A DNA stretch of 64,000 nt from Escherichia coli (GTDB lineage: Bacteria > Pseudomonadota > Gammaproteobacteria > Enterobacterales > Enterobacteriaceae): assembly GCF_024298765.1 (NCBI RefSeq), contig NZ_CP101210.1, one strand, 5' to 3'. A program made the position numbers and the translations under genes. This document shows positions 1,397-62,050 of the stretch, piece by piece; the first letter of the stretch is position 1; each line of letters opens with the position of its first letter. The notes beneath the pieces are model-generated. The model did not search any database. It saw only the letters and a list, made by a program, of their open reading frames with translations, and had not been told where the DNA came from.

Positions 1397-2176
1397 ATGA
1401 CGATGAATTCATTCGAGCGAAGGAATAAGATCATCCAATTAGTGAATGAACAGGGAACCGTGCTTGTTCAGGATCTGGCGGGAGTATTTGCTGCCTCGGA
1501 AGCGACAATCCGTGCCGATTTGCGCTTTCTCGAACAAAAAGGCGTGGTTACGCGCTTTCATGGCGGTGCGGCGAAAATAATGTCTGGTAATAGTGAAACC
1601 GAGACCCAGGAAGTCGGGTTTAAAGAGCGATTTCAGCTCGCCAGCGCGCCAAAAAACAGAATAGCGCAGGCGGCAGTCAAAATGATCCACGAAGGGATGA
1701 CCGTTATTCTCGACAGCGGAAGTACGACAATGCTTATCGCCGAAGGATTAATGACCGCCAAAAATATCACGGTGATTACCAACAGTCTCCCGGCAGCGTT
1801 TGCCCTTTCCGAAAATAAAGACATTACTCTGGTCGTCTGTGGTGGCACGGTCCGCCATAAAACGCGCTCGATGCATGGTTCCATTGCCGAGCGTTCATTA
1901 CAGGATATTAATGCCGATTTAATGTTTGTCGGTGCTGATGGTATTGATGCGGTTAATGGTATTACGACCTTTAATGAAGGTTATTCTATTAGCGGTGCGA
2001 TGGTCACAGCCGCTAATAAAGTGATTGCCGTTCTCGATTCATCGAAATTTAACCGTCGCGGTTTTAATCAGGTACTACCAATCGAAAAAATTGACATTAT
2101 TATTACCGATGATGCTGTGTCAGAGGTGGATAAACTGGCATTGCAGAAGACGCGGGTAAAATTAATTACGGTGTAG
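1397..2176 (+). CDS. gatR: DeoR-family transcriptional repressor of the galactitol operon (intact)
   Basis: 259 aa ORF with N-terminal HTH and DeoR sugar-binding C-terminal domain; position after gatD. Confidence 0.85.
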   Translation: MTMNSFERRNKIIQLVNEQGTVLVQDLAGVFAASEATIRADLRFLEQKGVVTRFHGGAAKIMSGNSETETQEVGFKERFQLASAPKNRIAQAAVKMIHEGMTVILDSGSTTMLIAEGLMTAKNITVITNSLPAAFALSENKDITLVVCGGTVRHKTRSMHGSIAERSLQDINADLMFVGADGIDAVNGITTFNEGYSISGAMVTAANKVIAVLDSSKFNRRGFNQVLPIEKIDIIITDDAVSEVDKLALQKTRVKLITV

Positions 2177-2257
2177 TATTGTTCTGTATGCCGGATAAGG
2201 TGTTTACACCGCATCCGGCATTACGGATTCTCCCTGGTTCAAGAGAGAATAGTTTGA

Positions 2258-3157
2258 TTAACGCAACAGTGGACAATCTGGTGGTAATCGACAACGCAAC
2301 GCTGCCGGAAGTATTTCAATATGAAAATTTTGCCCACTCAACGGTTCGCCATCAAGATTAAAGGTGATGTCGTGTGGTGCCTGAATATCAAACCACGACG
2401 AAGCGCCTTCGATAATATTCGGGTTATCTTCGTCAGATTTTAAGGTTGATACGAGAGCCGGAAGTATTTCATCGCCGGTAAAAATGCGCAGTTGCAGCAA
2501 GCCATCGTTAATTAACGCGTTCGGACACAATTGCTGACCGCCACCGGCCTGACGCCCGTTACCAATACCAATGACCAGGGCGTCACCTTGCCAGTGAAAG
2601 TTTTCACCGCGGATTTCACAACGGTCCGGTTGCAGAGTATCCATACGCATTAAGCCATGAATGATGTAAGAGACGCTACCCAGCGCGGCTTTTAATTTTT
2701 CCGGCGTTTCTGTGGTAATACGCGTCCCAAATCCGCCTGTCGCCATATTAATAAAACAGGTTTGTTTGTTGACCTGCGCCATATCTATCGCAATGGCGTC
2801 ACCGGCAATTGCCAGTTTCAGCGCCTTATCCAGTGCCTCAGGAATCCCTACACTGGTGGCAAAATCATTGGCGGTTCCTAATGGCAAAATTCCCAGCGCG
2901 GGTATGTCATCCCCCTCACACTGAATCAACGCCGTAGAAACTTCATTAATGGTGCCATCGCCACCACCGGCAATCACCGTTGCGACGCCCAACTTCCGGG
3001 CCTCCTCTACATATCGTGCGGCATCGCCTTTCTCCCAGGTGACCCGCACATGGATCGTCATTCCTTCCTCACGCAACAGCATAATTGCTTCGCGCAAGGG
3101 TAGATTGTCAGTACTTTTGCCATTAAGAATCAGTAAGCTGGCGGGAAATTCTGCCAT
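2258..3157 (-). CDS. yegS: lipid kinase YegS (diacylglycerol kinase catalytic domain family)
   Basis: 299 aa; GGDGT motif ([13 protein letters not shown]); matches recalled YegS sequence. Confidence 0.9.
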
Positions 3158-3562
3158 GATCGTATGTGCCTTTATGATTGGTCTGTAGATAGTGTAGAGC
3201 AGAAAACAAAAGGTGGAGTCAGAACAGGATGAAAGTCGGAGGATAAAAAGTCAGTTCAAGTATGGAGGATTCAGTGGTTACCACCAGGAGCTTGCAATGG
3301 GGACAGCGAATACTAACGGCTGCCACCGATAAATTTCAAAAAAGAGCATATACCTAATATTCAACTAAACAGTGGCATCTTCAATATAATATATTAAAGC
3401 CCCCATGGAGTTACCCTGAAGGGCCTCAATGTCCGTAATTCCTACTTATGTAGGAAATGTTGTACAGAACATTTATTATAATCCTATTCAATTATAATAA
3501 TCATGCCATTATTATATTTAAACACTAGAGAGTGTCGTTGGTATTTAATGGGGGAAGGTGAG

Positions 3563-3880
3563 ATGAAAAAGATAGCTGCTATATCATTAATTAGTATTTT
3601 TATTATGTCTGGTTGTGCTGTGCATAATGATGAGACAAGTATCGGTAAATTTGGTCTTGCATATAAAAGTAATATTCAGCGTAAACTTGATAACCAATAC
3701 TACACCGAAGCCGAAGCTTCTTTAGCCAGGGGTAGAATATCTGGTGCAGAAAATATAGTAAAAAATGATGCAACTCATTTCTGTGTTACTCAGGGCAAAA
3801 AAATGCAAATAGTTGAGCTGAAGACAGAAGGTGTAGGATTACATGGTGTCGCTCGTCTGACATTCAAATGTGGAGAGTGA
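3563..3880 (+). CDS. yegR: small lipoprotein YegR (105 aa)
   Basis: Internal ATG at 3563 gives MKKIAAISLISIFIMSGC signal peptide with lipobox; AT-rich; the ORF-track start at 3503 is an upstream extension. Confidence 0.75.
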   Translation: MKKIAAISLISIFIMSGCAVHNDETSIGKFGLAYKSNIQRKLDNQYYTEAEASLARGRISGAENIVKNDATHFCVTQGKKMQIVELKTEGVGLHGVARLTFKCGE

Positions 3881-4037
3881 GAATATTTTTTGGTAAGCGT
3901 CAAATATGCGCGTTCTGGCTGTGCGTAGCCGGAACCTGTGGGAGCACGATGCCGATAAGTGAAAGGCATCGTGCTATGAAGGAGGATTCTATCGATGTGG
4001 TCAATGGAAGACGGTTACCAGAGATAGGGCTTATGCA

Positions 4038-4073
4038 TAAAAAAATAAGCCCGTGTAAGGGAGATTACACAGG
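4038..4073 (-). terminator. putative Rho-independent terminator downstream of yegQ
   Basis: Inverted repeat ccgtgtaa...ttacacagg (4050-4073) followed on the minus strand by a T-rich run (plus strand aaaaaaataag). Confidence 0.4.
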
Positions 4074-4210
4074 CTAAGGAGGTGGTTCCTGGTACAGCTA
4101 GCATTTTATGGGTTATGTTTTTCAGCGAAACGGATGATAACCTTAATAAATGCAGCTGTATGTGATCGGTTTCTAAGAATTTTCCATCCGGGAAAAATAA
4201 TCGAAATTAA

Positions 4211-15977: not shown

Positions 15978-17224
15978 CAGGAGAGTGCTCCTTTTTTCGC
16001 GTATTCGCGGCTGGTGGCTTTCTCTTCCGGAGTAGTGGCGCTCTGGGCTTCCACCACTTCCACTTTCGCCCCTTCGGTCAGGCGATCAATGCCGTCTGTC
16101 ACCACGCGATCGCCCGCAGAAATACCTGCACGGATCACCACTTTCTGACTGTCCTGAATGCCCGGCGTCACCAGATGTTTGCTGACCTTGTTTTCGCTAT
16201 TCAGCACCCAGACAAAATGGCCTTCATTGCCCATTTGCAGGGCGGCTGTTGGGATCACTACGGCGTTTTGTTCGGTGTCGACTAACATGCGCGCGTTAAC
16301 AAACTGATTGGGAAACAGCGCATCATCCTGATTATTAAAGCGTGCTTTCACTTTAATCGTACCGGTAGTGGCATCGATTTGGTTATCTAGACTTAACAGC
16401 GTGCCTTCACTTAATTTCTTCGAGTTGGTGCGATCCCAGGCTTCTACCACCAGCGGTTTTCCGGCTTTCTGCGCCTGCACTACGGTAGCGATATCGCTTT
16501 CCGGCAGGGTAAAGACTAAATCGATAGGATGCGTCTGGGTGATCACCACGATCCCGGTGGTATCACCACTGGAGATTTGGTTACCAACATCAACCTGCTT
16601 GAGACCAACGCGACCATCGACTGGTGCGGTAATCCGGCTCCAGTCGAGTTGCAGCTGCGCGCTGGCAACGCTTGCTTCATCAGCCTTAATGGTGCCTTCG
16701 GTTTCACTGACCAGCGCCTGTTGGGCATCCAGCTCCTGGCGGGAAACGAGATTGGTTTTTGCCAGTTGTTGATAACGCGCCAGGTCACGGCGGGCGTTGG
16801 CAAGCGTGGCTTTATCTTTTGCCAGTTGGCCCTGGGCTTGTGCTAATGCAACTTTGAACTGGCTGGGGTCAATTTCTGCCAGTAAATCGCCTGCTTTGAC
16901 CTGCTGGCCTTCCTGGAAATGTAACGCTATCAGTTGGCCGTCCACGCGGCTGCGCACCGTAACGGTATTAGCGGCGGTAATGGTGCCAAGCCCGGTGAGG
17001 TAACGCGGAACTGCCTGTTCTACGGCGGTCGCCGCCTGAACCGGGGCTAATGGGCCGGAACGCATACCACGTCGACCACCCGCTGGCGATTGCTGCGCTT
17101 GTTTCGTCGCCCCTGGGGCTGCACTCCGGGAGTCATTGCGGCCTTGCCAGAACCAGAATGCGGCGATGGCGGCGATAACCACCACGATTACGATTACCCA
17201 ACGGGATTTATAACTACCTTTCAT
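15977..17224 (-). CDS. mdtA: RND efflux membrane-fusion (periplasmic adaptor) protein MdtA
   Basis: 415 aa from internal Met ([16 protein letters not shown]...); the ORF-track start at 17371 is an upstream extension. Confidence 0.85.
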
Positions 17225-17295: not shown

Positions 17296-17454
17296 TGGAG
17301 GAATTATGAAACACTGTCGGGAATCGTCTGAATGACGGGCACATTTGCGAGCACGCATCCAGTAATAACACAGGAAACTATTTTATCTACGCGTTAGCGA
17401 TAGACTGCTTGCATGGCGAAAGGAGGTAAGCCGCAGATTTCAGCCGGATGCTGA

Positions 17455-17600
17455 AACGGGAAAGCCCCTCCCGAGGAAGGGGCCTTAAATAAGGAAAGGG
17501 TCATGATGAAGCTACTCATCATCGTGGTGCTCTTAGTCATAAGCTTCCCCGCTTACTAAGACTACCAGGGCGGGGGAAACCCCGCTCTACCCTCACTCCT
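17455..17600 (-). ncRNA. putative Sib-type antisense sRNA (antitoxin of the ibs type I TA pair), copy 1; ends approximate
   Basis: Overlaps the small ibs ORF on the opposite strand; minus-strand hairpin GCCCCTTCCTCGGGAGGGGC (17464-17483) followed by a T-rich tract; part of a ~326-bp tandem repeat. Confidence 0.45.
17503..17559 (+). CDS. Ibs-family type I toxin, 18 aa hydrophobic peptide (MMKLLIIVVLLVISFPAY)
   Basis: Short ORF with RBS (aaggaaaggg) read directly from the sequence; absent from the ORF track; matches the Ibs toxin family. Confidence 0.7.
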   Translation: MMKLLIIVVLLVISFPAY

Positions 17601-17847
17601 GAAAGTATGCCTTCACGATAAGATTGTCAATCCGCAGGCTTTGTAGTCTGCGATCCTGCCAGCAAATATTCTTTGCGAGTCGTTACGCAATAATCACAGA
17701 GGAAACTATTTTATTCACGCGTTAGCGATAGACTGCATTCAGGGCGAAAGGAGGTAAGCCGATGATTTCAGCGGGACGCTGAAACGGGAAAGCCTCTCCC
17801 TGTACTGCACCCATTTTGTTGGACGATGAAATGGAATAGCCCCTAAT

Positions 17848-18369
17848 ATGTCAAAGCCAAAATACCCTTTTGAAAAGCGCCTTGAAGTCGTGAATCACTA
17901 CTTCACAACTGATGATGGTTACAGGATCATCTCGGCACGTTTTGGTGTCCCCCGAACCCAGGTCAGGACATGGGTTGCCCTCTATGAAAAACATGGAGAA
18001 AAAGGTTTAATTCCCAAACCTAAAGGCGTTAGTGCTGATCCAGAGTTGCGTATTAAGGTCGTGAAAGCTGTGATCGAGCAGCACATGTCCCTTAATCAGG
18101 CTGCTGCTCACTTTATGCTTGCTGGTAGTGGTTCTGTAGCCAGGTGGCTGAAGGTCTATGAAGAGCGCGGAGAAGCTGGTTTACGCGCGCTCAAGATTGG
18201 CACCAAAAGAAACATTGCAATATCAGTTGATCCAGAAAAAGCGGCATCAGCATTGGAGCTGTCAAAAGACCGACGCATTGAGGATCTTGAAAGGCAAGTT
18301 CGATTTCTTGAAACGCGGCTTGTGTATCTAAAAAAGCTGAAAGCCTTAGCTCATCCCACGAAAAAGTGA
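17848..18369 (+). CDS. insJ: IS150 OrfA (HTH transposase N-terminal protein, 173 aa)
   Basis: 173 aa with HTH; ends at slippery A AAA AAG (18359-18364), the -1 frameshift site to orfB. Confidence 0.85.
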   Translation: MSKPKYPFEKRLEVVNHYFTTDDGYRIISARFGVPRTQVRTWVALYEKHGEKGLIPKPKGVSADPELRIKVVKAVIEQHMSLNQAAAHFMLAGSGSVARWLKVYEERGEAGLRALKIGTKRNIAISVDPEKAASALELSKDRRIEDLERQVRFLETRLVYLKKLKALAHPTKK

Positions 18370-19217
18370 AAGTACTCAACGAGCTAAGGCAGTTTTATCC
18401 TCTTGATGAGCTTCTCAGGGCTGCGGAGATACCGCGCAGTACGTTTTATTACCATCTAAAGGCTCTCAGCAAGCCTGACAAGTATGCGGACGTTAAAAAG
18501 CGTATTGGTGAGATTTATCATGAGAATAGAGGCCGATACGGATACCGTAGGGTAACGCTGTCTCTTCATCGAGAAGGGAAACAGATTAACCATAAAGCTG
18601 TTCAGCGCCTGATGGGAATCCTCTCACTGAAGGCAGCGATTAAGGTCAAGCGATACCGCTCTTACAGAGGAGAGGTAGGGCAAACCGCCCCCAATGTTCT
18701 CCAAAGAGATTTCAAGGCTACGCGGCCAAACGAGAAGTGGGTTACCGATGTTACTGAATTTGCAGTCAATGGGCGCAAGCTGTATTTGTCTCCAGTAATA
18801 GATCTCTTCAACAACGAAGTTATTTCTTACAGCCTTTCGGAAAGACCAGTGATGAACATGGTCGAGAATATGCTCGATCAGGCATTCAAAAAGCTTAATC
18901 CTCACGAGCATCCTGTTCTGCACTCTGACCAGGGATGGCAGTATCGTATGAGAAGATATCAAAATATCCTTAAAGAACATGGTATTAAACAAAGCATGTC
19001 CAGAAAAGGCAATTGTCTGGATAATGCTGTGGTGGAGTGTTTCTTTGGAACCTTAAAGTCGGAGTGTTTTTATCTTGATGAGTTCAGTAATATAAGCGAG
19101 CTGAAGGATGCTGTTACGGAATATATTGAATACTACAACAGCAGAAGAATTAGCCTGAAATTAAAAGGTCTGACTCCAATTGAATATCGGAATCAGACCT
19201 ATATGCCTCGTGTTTAA
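18366..19217 (+). CDS. insK: IS150 OrfB (DDE transposase catalytic domain, 283 aa)
   Basis: 283 aa with DDE integrase-core motifs ([25 protein letters not shown]). Confidence 0.85.
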
Positions 19218-19277
19218 CTGTCCAACTTTTTGGGGTCAGTACACCCGGAGAAGAGGGCTTTTAATAAGGAAAGGGTT

Positions 19278-19337
19278 ATGATGAAGCACGTCATCATACT
19301 GGTGATACTCTTAGTGATTAGCTTCCAGGCTTACTAA
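19278..19337 (+). CDS. Ibs-family type I toxin, 19 aa (MMKHVIILVILLVISFQAY), copy 2
   Basis: Short ORF with RBS immediately past the IS150 right end; paralogue of the peptide at 17503. Confidence 0.65.
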   Translation: MMKHVIILVILLVISFQAY

Positions 19338-19557
19338 GAACACCAGGGGGAGGGGGAAACCTCTCCCTAACCCTCACTCCTGAAATTATGTCACTCCGCC
19401 CTTAGTGTCAATCGACGGCTCTCCGTTCTTGCGAGGCGAATAGCAAAATTTTCTGCGCCGCCGGGCCTAATTCTGAAAGTTTCTTCGTTTGTTCTTATTT
19501 CATTATTGCAGTCGGTATGATACCGGACCTCAATAATTCTCTAAGAAAGGATTTCTT

Positions 19558-20217
19558 ATGAGCGAACAAATCACGTTTGCCACCAGCGATTTTGCCAGTA
19601 ACCCGGAACCACGTTGCCCCTGCATTTTGCTGCTGGATGTTTCTGGCTCGATGAGCGGCAGACCTATTAATGAACTTAACGCCGGATTGGTGACCTTTCG
19701 TGATGAACTGCTTGCCGATCCGCTGGCTTTAAAAAGAGTGGAACTCGGCATTGTGACGTTCGGCCCGGTGCATGTGGAACAACCCTTTACCAGCGCCGCT
19801 AACTTTTTCCCGCCCATCCTGTTTGCCCAGGGGGATACGCCAATGGGGGCCGCCATTACCAAAGCCCTGGATATGGTTGAAGAGAGGAAACGTGAGTACC
19901 GCGCAAATGGTATTTCGTATTATCGCCCGTGGATTTTCCTGATCACCGATGGCGCTCCAACCGATGAGTGGCAGGCTGCCGCCAACAAAGTGTTTCAGGG
20001 GGAAGAAGATAAGAAGTTTGCCTTCTTTTCCATCGGTGTTCAGGGGGCGGATATGAAGACGCTGGCACAAATCAGCGTTCGTCAGCCTTTGCCTCTGCAA
20101 GGATTACAATTCCGTGAACTGTTTAGCTGGTTATCCAGTTCGCTGCGTTCGGTTTCCCGCTCCACGCCGGGAACGGAAGTTGTGCTGGAAGCGCCAAAAG
20201 GCTGGACGTCAGTGTGA
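19558..20217 (+). CDS. yegL: von Willebrand factor A (vWA) domain protein YegL (TerY-like)
   Basis: 219 aa; MIDAS motif DVSGSMSG (DxSxS) and later ITDGAPTD. Confidence 0.85.
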
Positions 20218-36360: not shown

Positions 36361-36399
36361 TCAGTGTATTGGTAGCTAAAAAGCCAGGGGCGGTAGCGT
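36361..36399 (+). promoter_or_regulatory. JUMPstart element with ops (RfaH-recruiting) site in the wza leader
   Basis: 39-bp cagtgtattggtagctaaaaagccaggggcggtagcgtg; ops GGCGGTAGCGTG at 36388-36399. Confidence 0.85.
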
Positions 36400-36578
36400 G
36401 TCTGGATGCCTGAAAGACCAGTCTGAATTATTCTGTCAATAGCCTGCGGATGAAATCAATTTTTTTAGGACTGATGCCAGTTAAATTTGTATTCAATTAA
36501 CTGCAAGGTAAATGTGCATGGCGACATTGCTATTAATAGTGCACAGGATAATTACTCTGCCAAAGTGATAAATAAACA

Positions 36579-50842: not shown

Positions 50843-50931
50843 ATGAATGCGAAACCGAGATGTAAATAACGACAAAAACAAAATTGGCCGTTTCGGTCAG
50901 GGCCAACTATTGCCTGAAAAAGGGTAACGAC

Positions 50932-55340: not shown

Positions 55341-55526
55341 GCCGGATGCGGCGTAAAACGCCTTATCCATCCTACGGTTCCGTGCTCGGGACCTGTAGGC
55401 CTGATAAGACGCGTCAGCGTCGCATCAGGCACTGAATGCCGGATGCGGCGTGAACGCCTTATCCGGCCTACGGTTCTGTGCTCGGGTCTTGTAGGCCTGA
55501 TAAGACGCGTCAGCGTCGCATCAGGC
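55341..55526. repeat. tandem BIME/REP cluster (two ~95-bp units)
   Basis: Two near-identical units each holding gccggatgcggcgt(g/a)aacgccttatcc and tgtaggcctgataagacgcgtcagcgtcgcatcaggc. Confidence 0.8.
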
Positions 55527-62011: not shown

Positions 62012-62050
62012 CAGTGAGTTGGTAACTGTTAAGCCAAGGGCGGTAGCGTG
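62012..62050 (+). promoter_or_regulatory. JUMPstart element with ops site (O-antigen operon leader)
   Basis: 39-bp cagtgagttggtaactgttaagccaagggcggtagcgtg; ops GGCGGTAGCGTG at 62039-62050. Confidence 0.85.

What the first reader, a model, noticed from the sequence alone, without database searches (positions are those of the whole stretch)
17363..19460. Tandem sib/ibs type I toxin-antitoxin repeat, with two unannotated 18-19 aa toxin ORFs
Two ~326-bp repeat units, beginning near 17363 and 17689, each contain a conserved block (gcgttagcgatagactgc...ggcgaaaggaggtaagcc...gctgaaacgggaaagcc), a GC hairpin, and a tiny ORF with a strong RBS encoding a hydrophobic peptide (MMKLLIIVVLLVISFPAY at 17503-17559; MMKHVIILVILLVISFQAY at 19278-19337). 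This matches the Ibs toxin / Sib antisense RNA family. The ORFs are below the ORF-track cutoff and would be missed by standard gene calling.
Basis: partly seen in the sequence, partly recalled or inferred. Interest (0 to 1): 0.45.

Follow-up and report, generated by a model that had tools for sequence, protein, structure and literature searches.

The report
Known sib/ibs toxin locus, IS150-split

Summary
Rfam's SIB_RNA model hits the minus strand at 19411-19263 (149.5 bits) and 17630-17488 (142 bits), against a gathering score of 56. Both are identical to K-12 ibsB and ibsA, in the same mdtA-yegL intergenic region. So this is the characterised sibB/ibsB and sibA/ibsA type I toxin-antitoxin pair. 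It is annotated in K-12 and by PGAP in RefSeq, so it is not new and not generally "unannotated".

A 1443-bp IS150 (17801-19243, 3-bp duplication CCC) sits inside the SibA terminator hairpin, which is also the ibsA 5'UTR hairpin. Removing the IS and one CCC restores the K-12 sequence exactly. The ibsA ORF is therefore 1.45 kb from its upstream block. SibA keeps its promoter and first 132 nt but loses its terminator arm.

Side result: exact-junction searches of 5,426 complete E. coli genomes found IS150 at two precise positions in this hairpin. It occurs in both orientations and in both sibA and sibD, giving at least six distinct combinations. Two control positions gave no match. This is a likely IS150 hot spot.

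Overall interest is low.

The parts
17344..17671 (+). Repeat unit B (sibB/ibsB module), intact
   Evidence: Direct repeat family D1, spacing 328. 5 substitutions from K-12 within this unit, none in the ibsB ORF (8 over the whole 955-bp alignment).
17503..17559 (+). ibsB ORF, 18 aa, MMKLLIIVVLLVISFPAY
   Evidence: Translation. DNA identical to K-12 ibsB b4668. PGAP calls it an Ibs family toxin, WP_001386899.1.
17459..17594 (-). SibB antisense RNA, 136 nt by K-12 coordinates, covering the whole ibsB ORF and its ribosome-binding site
   Evidence: K-12 sibB b4437 mapped onto the window with 1 mismatch. Rfam RF00113 gives 142 bits over 17630-17488; that model also includes the promoter.
17461..17486 (-). 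SibB terminator hairpin, an 11-bp stem; its complement lies in the ibsB 5'UTR.
   Evidence: RNA fold.
17625..17630 (-). sibB promoter -35 hexamer TTGACA
   Evidence: Rfam alignment, model positions 1-6.
17672..17800 (+). Left half of repeat unit A. It holds the ibsA upstream block (inferred promoter and first ~33 nt of the 5'UTR). On the minus strand, 17786-17797 are the displaced last 12 nt of SibA (3' arm and tail of its terminator) and 17798-17800 are the duplicated CCC.
   Evidence: Repeat D1. The K-12 SibA 3' end maps to 17786. The ibs transcription start is inferred from ibsC: 18 nt upstream of the Sib 3' end (PMC2943612).
17798..17800 (.). Target-site duplication CCC, left copy
   Evidence: Removing the IS and one CCC restores the K-12 sequence exactly.
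17801..19243 (+). IS150 (IS3 family), 1443 bp. insA is at 17848-18369 and insB at 18366-19217. The A AAA AAG slippery site is at 18330-18336. Terminal inverted repeats are TGTACTG...CAGTACA.
   Evidence: RefSeq annotation 'IS3-like element IS150 family transposase, programmed frameshift' at the same place. 10 substitutions from the K-12 IS150; 9 of them are shared with another natural copy.
19244..19246 (.). Target-site duplication CCC, right copy
19166..19200 (-). 15-bp hairpin followed by UUUUAAUUU, inside the IS150 right end. It is a candidate substitute terminator for read-through SibA (inferred).
   Evidence: Terminator scan. Fold of 19375-19150 on the minus strand.
19247..19375 (-). Retained 5' part of SibA. 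With the GGG of the duplication, nt 1-132 of 144 are native. This part covers the whole ibsA ORF and its ribosome-binding site.
   Evidence: K-12 sibA b4436 mapping. Rfam RF00113 gives 149.5 bits over 19411-19263.
19278..19337 (+). ibsA ORF, 19 aa, MMKHVIILVILLVISFQAY
   Evidence: Translation. Identical to K-12 ibsA b4667. PGAP IbsA, WP_010723109.1.
19406..19411 (-). sibA promoter -35 hexamer TTGACA
   Evidence: Rfam alignment. This stretch is identical to K-12.

Best explanation
The region is the E. coli chromosomal sibB/ibsB plus sibA/ibsA tandem type I toxin-antitoxin locus, between mdtA and yegL. Each unit encodes a hydrophobic Ibs peptide of 18-19 aa on the + strand. On the - strand it encodes a constitutively made Sib RNA of about 140 nt that is fully complementary to the ibs ribosome-binding site and ORF. 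Sib blocks Ibs synthesis by base pairing. This mechanism is established for the family and is not tested here.

Unit B (17344-17671) is intact. Unit A has been split by an IS150 inserted with a CCC duplication. The insertion lies in the loop-proximal part of the hairpin that serves as the SibA terminator on one strand and as part of the ibsA 5'UTR on the other.

Shown by sequence: the ibsA Shine-Dalgarno sequence and ORF now lie 1446 bp from everything more than 31 nt upstream of the ATG. SibA keeps its promoter and nt 1-132 but has lost the 3' arm of its terminator.

Inferred: (1) ibsA is cut off from its native promoter, so it can be transcribed only by read-through from the ibsA promoter and IS150, which point the same way. 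(2) SibA is still made and still pairs with ibsA, but it now runs into IS150 antisense to the end of insB. It probably stops at the IS-borne hairpin at 19200-19166, giving a chimeric RNA of about 215 nt. (3) The insertion is tolerated because ibsA is the one ibs gene that does not need its cognate Sib (PMC2943612).
For: Rfam SIB_RNA hits of 149.5 and 142 bits against a gathering score of 56. ORF translations. The K-12 annotation of sibA/ibsA/sibB/ibsB in the same yegL-mdtA interval. An ungapped 955-bp alignment to K-12 with 8 substitutions once the IS and one CCC are removed, with both ORFs identical.

IS150 features: 1443 bp, inverted repeats, 3-bp duplication, and insA/insB with an A AAA AAG site. 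RefSeq annotation of the same allele.

Folds: the native SibA has a terminal hairpin at nt 115-141. The window version has lost it and gains a 15-bp hairpin with a U-run 45-80 nt into the IS.

Han et al. 2010: the ibsC transcription start lies 18 nt upstream of the SibC 3' end; TRD1 is at +46-68 and TRD2 near +95-113 of SibC, regions retained here; cells lacking SibA tolerate ibsA.
Against: No expression data are available for this strain. The ibsA transcription start is inferred by homology to ibsC and ibsD. Units A and B carry a block of about 22 nt that is absent from C, D and E, so the exact start is uncertain. Every plausible position is still left of the IS. The substitute terminator is only a consensus-type prediction. 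The promoter scan found no outward promoter at the IS right end, but weak or hybrid promoters cannot be excluded.
Confidence: 0.85

Rival explanations
1. Both units are intact, independently working toxin-antitoxin modules in a simple 2 x 326-bp tandem repeat, as the finding implies.
For: The Rfam model matches both copies end to end (1-147 of 147, not flagged as truncated), and both ORFs are intact.
Against: The Rfam model stops before the Sib terminator and includes the promoter, so it cannot see the break. Mapping of the K-12 gene shows that the SibA 3' end lies 1.45 kb away, on the other side of IS150. The unit A hairpin is split.
Confidence: 0.03
2. Unit A still works as a toxin-antitoxin pair despite the IS. 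ibsA would be transcribed at a meaningful level from IS150 or ibsA-promoter read-through, or from a hybrid promoter at the IS right end. The 3'-extended SibA would repress it as before.
For: IS150 and ibsA have the same orientation. No terminator-like site was found on the + strand between insB and ibsA. SibA retains the regions equivalent to TRD1 and TRD2.
Against: No promoter-like site lies near the IS right end on the + strand. IS150 transcription is normally weak (general knowledge of IS3-family elements, not tested here).
Confidence: 0.2
3. The two tiny ORFs are chance ORFs in a repeated intergenic sequence, not genes.
For: They are only 18-19 codons long.
Against: They are identical to the annotated K-12 ibsB and ibsA genes; ibsA and other family members were shown to be toxic on over-expression (own knowledge of Fozo 2008; summarised). 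Each has a strong ribosome-binding site and a full-length antisense Sib gene.
Confidence: 0.01
4. The recurrent IS150 insertions in Sib hairpins reflect selection for silencing ibs toxins, or tolerance of insertions only there. They do not reflect a target preference of the transposase.
For: Both positions separate the toxin ORF from its promoter. Insertions in essential or coding DNA would be purged, which enriches intergenic survivors.
Against: The same two 3-bp positions are reused to the base in sibA and sibD and in both orientations. Positions 3 bp and 8 bp away gave no match. Selection alone would allow any position in the ~60-nt 5'UTR or in the ORF.
Confidence: 0.2

Closest known systems
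E. coli K-12 sibA/ibsA and sibB/ibsB (Fozo et al. 2008, Mol Microbiol 70:1076; Rfam RF00113)
   Same: Same genomic position (mdtA-yegL), same order and strands. ibsA and ibsB are identical. SibB has 1 substitution. The SibA promoter and first 132 nt are identical.
   Different: K-12 has no IS here. In the window, IS150 splits the SibA terminator / ibsA 5'UTR hairpin.
RefSeq E. coli genomes carrying the same allele (for example strain 201609, NZ_CP048107.1)
   Same: Identical left junction and CCC duplication in 13 of 5,426 complete genomes. The flanks of strain 201609 show 0 mismatches in the 600 bp compared on the left and 2 in the 350 bp on the right.
   Different: The copies checked in three of those genomes (L001, L006, L007) are the canonical K-12-type IS150 (0-2 differences). 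The window's copy differs from the K-12 copy at 10 positions, 9 of which are shared with an IS150 in yeeJ of another strain.
hokA/sokA of K-12, a type I TA locus interrupted by IS150; and the IS150 hot spot between trg and mokB
   Same: IS150 lies inside or next to a chromosomal type I toxin-antitoxin locus, close to the toxin ORF but not in it. A trg-mokB insertion hot spot was reported in REL4536 mutation-accumulation lines (PMC5289635). That several K-12 hok loci were inactivated by IS elements is from my own knowledge of Pedersen & Gerdes 1999.
   Different: A different toxin family (Hok, about 50 aa) and no sequence relation to Sib. I did not compare the hok insertion points with the Sib hairpin in any detail.
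IS elements with structured or palindromic targets (for example IS186 at GGGG(N6)CCCC)
   Same: Reuse of exact positions in a GC-rich palindromic target, in either orientation (IS186: PMC5009759).
   Different: A different IS family and a different motif. No target motif for IS150 was found in the papers searched.

Membership tests
Sib RNA (Rfam RF00113) | Covariance-model score at or above the gathering threshold (56 bits) | tested here: met
   149.5 bits (19411-19263, -) and 142 bits (17630-17488, -), both covering model positions 1-147.
Sib RNA (Rfam RF00113) | Encoded antisense to, and spanning, the whole ibs ribosome-binding site and ORF | tested here: met
   SibB at 17594-17459 covers ibsB at 17503-17559. 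The retained SibA part, 19375-19247, covers ibsA at 19278-19337 and its Shine-Dalgarno sequence.
Sib RNA (Rfam RF00113) | Own promoter and own intrinsic terminator giving an RNA of about 136-145 nt | tested here: inconclusive
   Met for SibB (TTGACA -35; 11-bp terminator hairpin). For SibA the promoter is intact, but the 3' arm of the terminator is displaced 1446 bp by IS150.
Sib RNA (Rfam RF00113) | Represses synthesis of the cognate Ibs toxin | not testable with these tools
   Known for K-12 Sib RNAs (PMC2943612). This needs experiments in a strain with this allele.
Ibs type I toxins | Hydrophobic peptide of 18-19 aa with the family's sequence (MMK...LLVISF.AY) and a strong ribosome-binding site | tested here: met
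   Identical to K-12 IbsB and IbsA. PGAP names them IbsA and Ibs family toxin. The peptides are too short (under 20 aa) for the HMM tools offered.
Ibs type I toxins | Toxic on over-expression (membrane or ATP-synthase target) | not testable with these tools
   Literature only. Salmonella IbsA is reported to inhibit FoF1 ATP synthase (bioRxiv 10.1101/2025.05.26.656083).
IS150 (IS3 family) | 1443-bp element with terminal inverted repeats TGTACTG.../...CAGTACA, a 3-bp target duplication, and two ORFs joined by -1 frameshift at A AAA AAG | tested here: met
   17801-19243. CCC duplication. insA 173 aa and insB 283 aa. Slippery site at 18330-18336. 99.3% identical to the K-12 IS150.

The most novel reading that the evidence does not exclude
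IS150 has a previously undescribed, position-precise insertion hot spot in the Sib terminator / ibs 5'UTR hairpin. The duplications are CCC at the stem-loop boundary and GAA six bp further on. Both orientations occur, in sibA and in sibD, giving at least six independent combinations. Each insertion separates an ibs toxin ORF from its promoter. Each also turns the Sib antitoxin into a chimeric RNA whose 3' tail is antisense either to the 3' end of insB or, in the opposite orientation, to the IS150 left end and start of insA. Such an RNA could act in trans on other IS150 copies. Together with IS150 in hokA/sokA and the reported trg-mokB hot spot, this would mean IS150 preferentially homes to chromosomal type I toxin-antitoxin loci.
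Probability: 0.4. Interest if true: 0.45.

Novelty: already known. Interest (0 to 1): 0.2.

Why it matters

Two practical lessons follow. First, a full-length covariance-model hit does not show that an sRNA gene is intact, because RF00113 omits the terminator that the IS destroys here. Second, natural E. coli lineages carry an ibsA allele uncoupled from its promoter and a SibA with an altered 3' end. That matters to anyone who uses ibsA/SibA phenotypes across strains.

The IS150 hot spot, if confirmed, would give a defined natural target for studying IS3-family target choice. It would also add to the evidence that IS elements recurrently disrupt chromosomal type I TA loci.

Tried and rejected
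(1) I tried to read Fozo et al. 2008 (PMC2597788); it is not held. Family facts therefore come from Han et al. 2010, Fozo et al. 2010 and the K-12 annotation.

(2) I tried to fix the ibsA transcription start by aligning units A and B with K-12 units C, D and E. A/B carry about 22 extra nt (AAAGGAGGTAAGCC...), so the exact start stays uncertain. Only 'left of the IS' is safe.

(3) The promoter scan found no sigma-70-like site that could drive ibsA from the IS150 right end, and it did not flag the Sib promoters either because of its thresholds. It is therefore weak evidence in both directions.

(4) I considered in-situ decay of the IS as the cause of its 10 differences from the canonical IS150. 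I rejected this because 9 of the 10 are shared with an IS150 in yeeJ of another strain, and 7 of the 10 are synonymous.

(5) Literature searches for IS150 together with ibsA or sibA gave nothing relevant.

(6) HMM family scans of the Ibs peptides were not possible because the peptides are below 20 aa.

(7) I did not identify the source strain. No complete RefSeq E. coli genome matches the 2.4-kb region at 100%; the best is 99.5%.

Full report
OBSERVATION. A 129-nt direct repeat (17344-17472 versus 17672-17800, 84% identity, spacing 328 bp) was found by the repeat finder. The two ORFs translate exactly as written: 17503-17559 gives MMKLLIIVVLLVISFPAY and 19278-19337 gives MMKHVIILVILLVISFQAY. 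Each is preceded by AAGGAAAGGG. Rfam RF00113 (SIB_RNA) hits the minus strand at 19411-19263 (149.5 bits, E = 3e-31) and at 17630-17488 (142 bits, E = 2e-29). Both hits are full length, against a gathering score of 56.

IDENTITY. The flanking genes are mdtA (minus strand, start at 17224) and yegL (19558-20217). In E. coli K-12 MG1655 this same interval holds the annotated genes sibA/ibsA and sibB/ibsB. After removing 17801-19246, the window aligns to K-12 without gaps over 955 bp with 8 substitutions, and both ORFs are identical. Mapping the K-12 coordinates gives SibB = 17594-17459 (-) with 1 mismatch, ibsB = 17503-17559, and ibsA = 19278-19337. SibA has its 5' end at 19375 and its 3' end at 17786. 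The unit next to mdtA is therefore sibB/ibsB, and the one next to yegL is sibA/ibsA. PGAP annotates both peptides in RefSeq genomes that carry this very allele. 'Unannotated' is thus true only of a length-filtered ORF track. [quoted passage not shown]

Unit A is split. Positions 17801-19243 are a complete IS150. It is 1443 bp long with ends TGTACTG.../...CAGTACA. It encodes insA (173 aa, 17848-18369) and insB (283 aa, 18366-19217), with an A AAA AAG slippery site at 18330-18336. It is flanked by a 3-bp duplication, CCC, at 17798-17800 and 19244-19246. Deleting the IS and one CCC restores the K-12 sequence exactly. The insertion point lies inside the hairpin AAAGCCTCTCC-CGGA-GAAGAGGGCTTT. On the minus strand this hairpin is the SibA terminator: in the fold of the native RNA it occupies nt 115-141. 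The Rfam model begins at the promoter -35 and ends before this terminator. That is why it reports an untruncated hit even though the gene is broken.

MECHANISM. The following is established for the family but not tested here. Sib RNAs are made constitutively and are fully complementary to the ibs translation-initiation region and ORF. They repress Ibs synthesis through two recognition domains, TRD1 (+46-68 of SibC) and TRD2 (around +95-113). Ibs peptides are toxic when over-produced (PMC2943612). Salmonella IbsA is reported to inhibit FoF1 ATP synthase (bioRxiv 10.1101/2025.05.26.656083).

For this allele the sequence shows the following. SibA keeps its promoter and its first 132 nt, so the TRD-equivalent regions are intact. 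Its last 12 nt, the 3' arm and tail of the terminator, are 1446 bp away. Only 31 nt of native sequence remain upstream of the ibsA ATG.

The rest is inferred. In ibsC the transcription start lies 18 nt upstream of the SibC 3' end. By homology the ibsA start lies near 17768, and in any case left of the IS. The IS therefore sits at about +33 of the ibsA 5'UTR and separates the promoter from the ORF. Transcripts from the ibsA promoter now enter IS150 in the sense direction. SibA transcription now enters the IS right end, antisense to the end of insB. There it meets a 15-bp hairpin followed by UUUUAAUUU at 19200-19166, which predicts a chimeric RNA of about 215 nt. The insertion should be harmless, because ibsA is the one ibs gene tolerated without its cognate Sib.

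POPULATION DATA AND A SIDE FINDING. The IS-containing 2.4-kb region is matched over at least 80% of its length in 74 of 5,426 complete E. coli genomes. The best match is 99.5% identical. Exact 34-nt junction searches gave these counts:
- 13 genomes have the window's junction, with the CCC duplication.
- 54 genomes have IS150 six bp further right, with a GAA duplication.
- One genome has IS150 at the CCC site in the opposite orientation.
- A further genome has IS150 at the CCC site in the opposite orientation, in a unit A allele with two flank SNPs.
- In the unlinked sibD unit (yqiK-hldE), IS150 is at the homologous CCC position in the + orientation in 2 genomes that are identical over the 5 kb compared.
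- In sibD it is at the CCC position in the - orientation in 1 genome.
- In sibD it is at the homologous GAA position in 2 genomes; the GAA duplication was verified in one (L016), while the other (strain H2, L015) has its IS150 right end truncated by an IS1.

That makes at least six distinct combinations of unit, position and orientation. Control junctions 3 bp to the right of the CCC site and 8 bp to its left gave no match.

The window's own IS150 copy differs from the canonical K-12 copy at 10 positions. Nine of these are shared with an IS150 in yeeJ of another strain, and 7 are synonymous. The three other copies checked at this site (L001, L006, L007) are the canonical type, with 0-2 differences from the K-12 copy. 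The window's allele therefore arose by a separate insertion or by gene conversion.

K-12's only IS150 lies in the hokA/sokA type I locus. An IS150 hot spot between trg and mokB has been reported (PMC5289635). I found no paper that mentions IS150 together with ibsA.

COMPARISON AND VERDICT. The locus is a member of the Sib/Ibs family by every feature that can be tested in silico, and it is the orthologue of the K-12 locus. It is not novel. The IS150-split sibA/ibsA allele is a natural variant that is already present, and annotated gene by gene, in RefSeq genomes. The apparent IS150 hot spot in Sib hairpins is the only element that may be new, and it is of modest, specialist interest. Overall interest is 0.2.

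Noticed in passing
window 17798-17800 / 19244-19246; loci L008, L010-L016: IS150 reuses two exact positions (duplications CCC and GAA, 6 bp apart) in the Sib terminator hairpin. It does so in both orientations and in both sibA and sibD, across 5,426 E. coli genomes. Control positions 3 bp to the right and 8 bp to the left gave no match. This is a likely insertion hot spot, and I found no paper describing it.
   Followed up: partly
window 17801-19243: This IS150 copy is a variant subtype. It has 10 substitutions from the K-12 copy, 7 of them synonymous. Nine are shared with a copy in yeeJ of strain CRECJHTL34 (L005). No identical copy exists in the complete-genome collection; the best match is 99.8%.
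   Followed up: partly
L009 (K-12 3720633-3722075): K-12's single IS150 lies inside another type I toxin-antitoxin locus, hokA/mokA/sokA. PMC5289635 reports an IS150 hot spot between trg and mokB. This suggests a wider link between IS150 and type I TA loci.
   Followed up: no
window 17747-17782 (unit A) and 17419-17440 (unit B): Units A and B, but not K-12 units C, D and E, carry a Shine-Dalgarno-like block AAAGGAGGTAAGCC upstream of the hairpin. In unit A it is followed at 7 nt by ATG and a 6-codon ORF (MISAGR*, 17762-17782). That ATG is absent from unit B, so this is probably not a conserved upstream ORF. Its function is unknown.
   Followed up: no
window 19166-19200 (-): A perfect 15-bp inverted repeat lies within the last codons of IS150 insB and is followed on the minus strand by a T-run. 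It could stop transcription entering the IS from outside.
   Followed up: partly
L012 (NZ_CM136169.1), locus 1893-4054: This strain has three ibs ORFs between mdtA and yegL, meaning an extra Sib/Ibs unit, in addition to the inverted IS150.
   Followed up: no
window 4043-4128 (-): CyaR (RyeE) sRNA, Rfam 100.7 bits. Its distance from the sib locus matches the K-12 gene order.
   Followed up: no
window 36362-36400 (+) and 62012-62050 (+): Two JUMPstart (ops-containing) elements. I presume they lie upstream of the colanic-acid and O-antigen gene clusters, but I did not check.
   Followed up: no
window 50878-50927 (+) and 55398-55468 (-): Rfam hits to the algC RNA motif (78 bits) and to naRNA4, a REP-type element (80 bits).
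   Followed up: no
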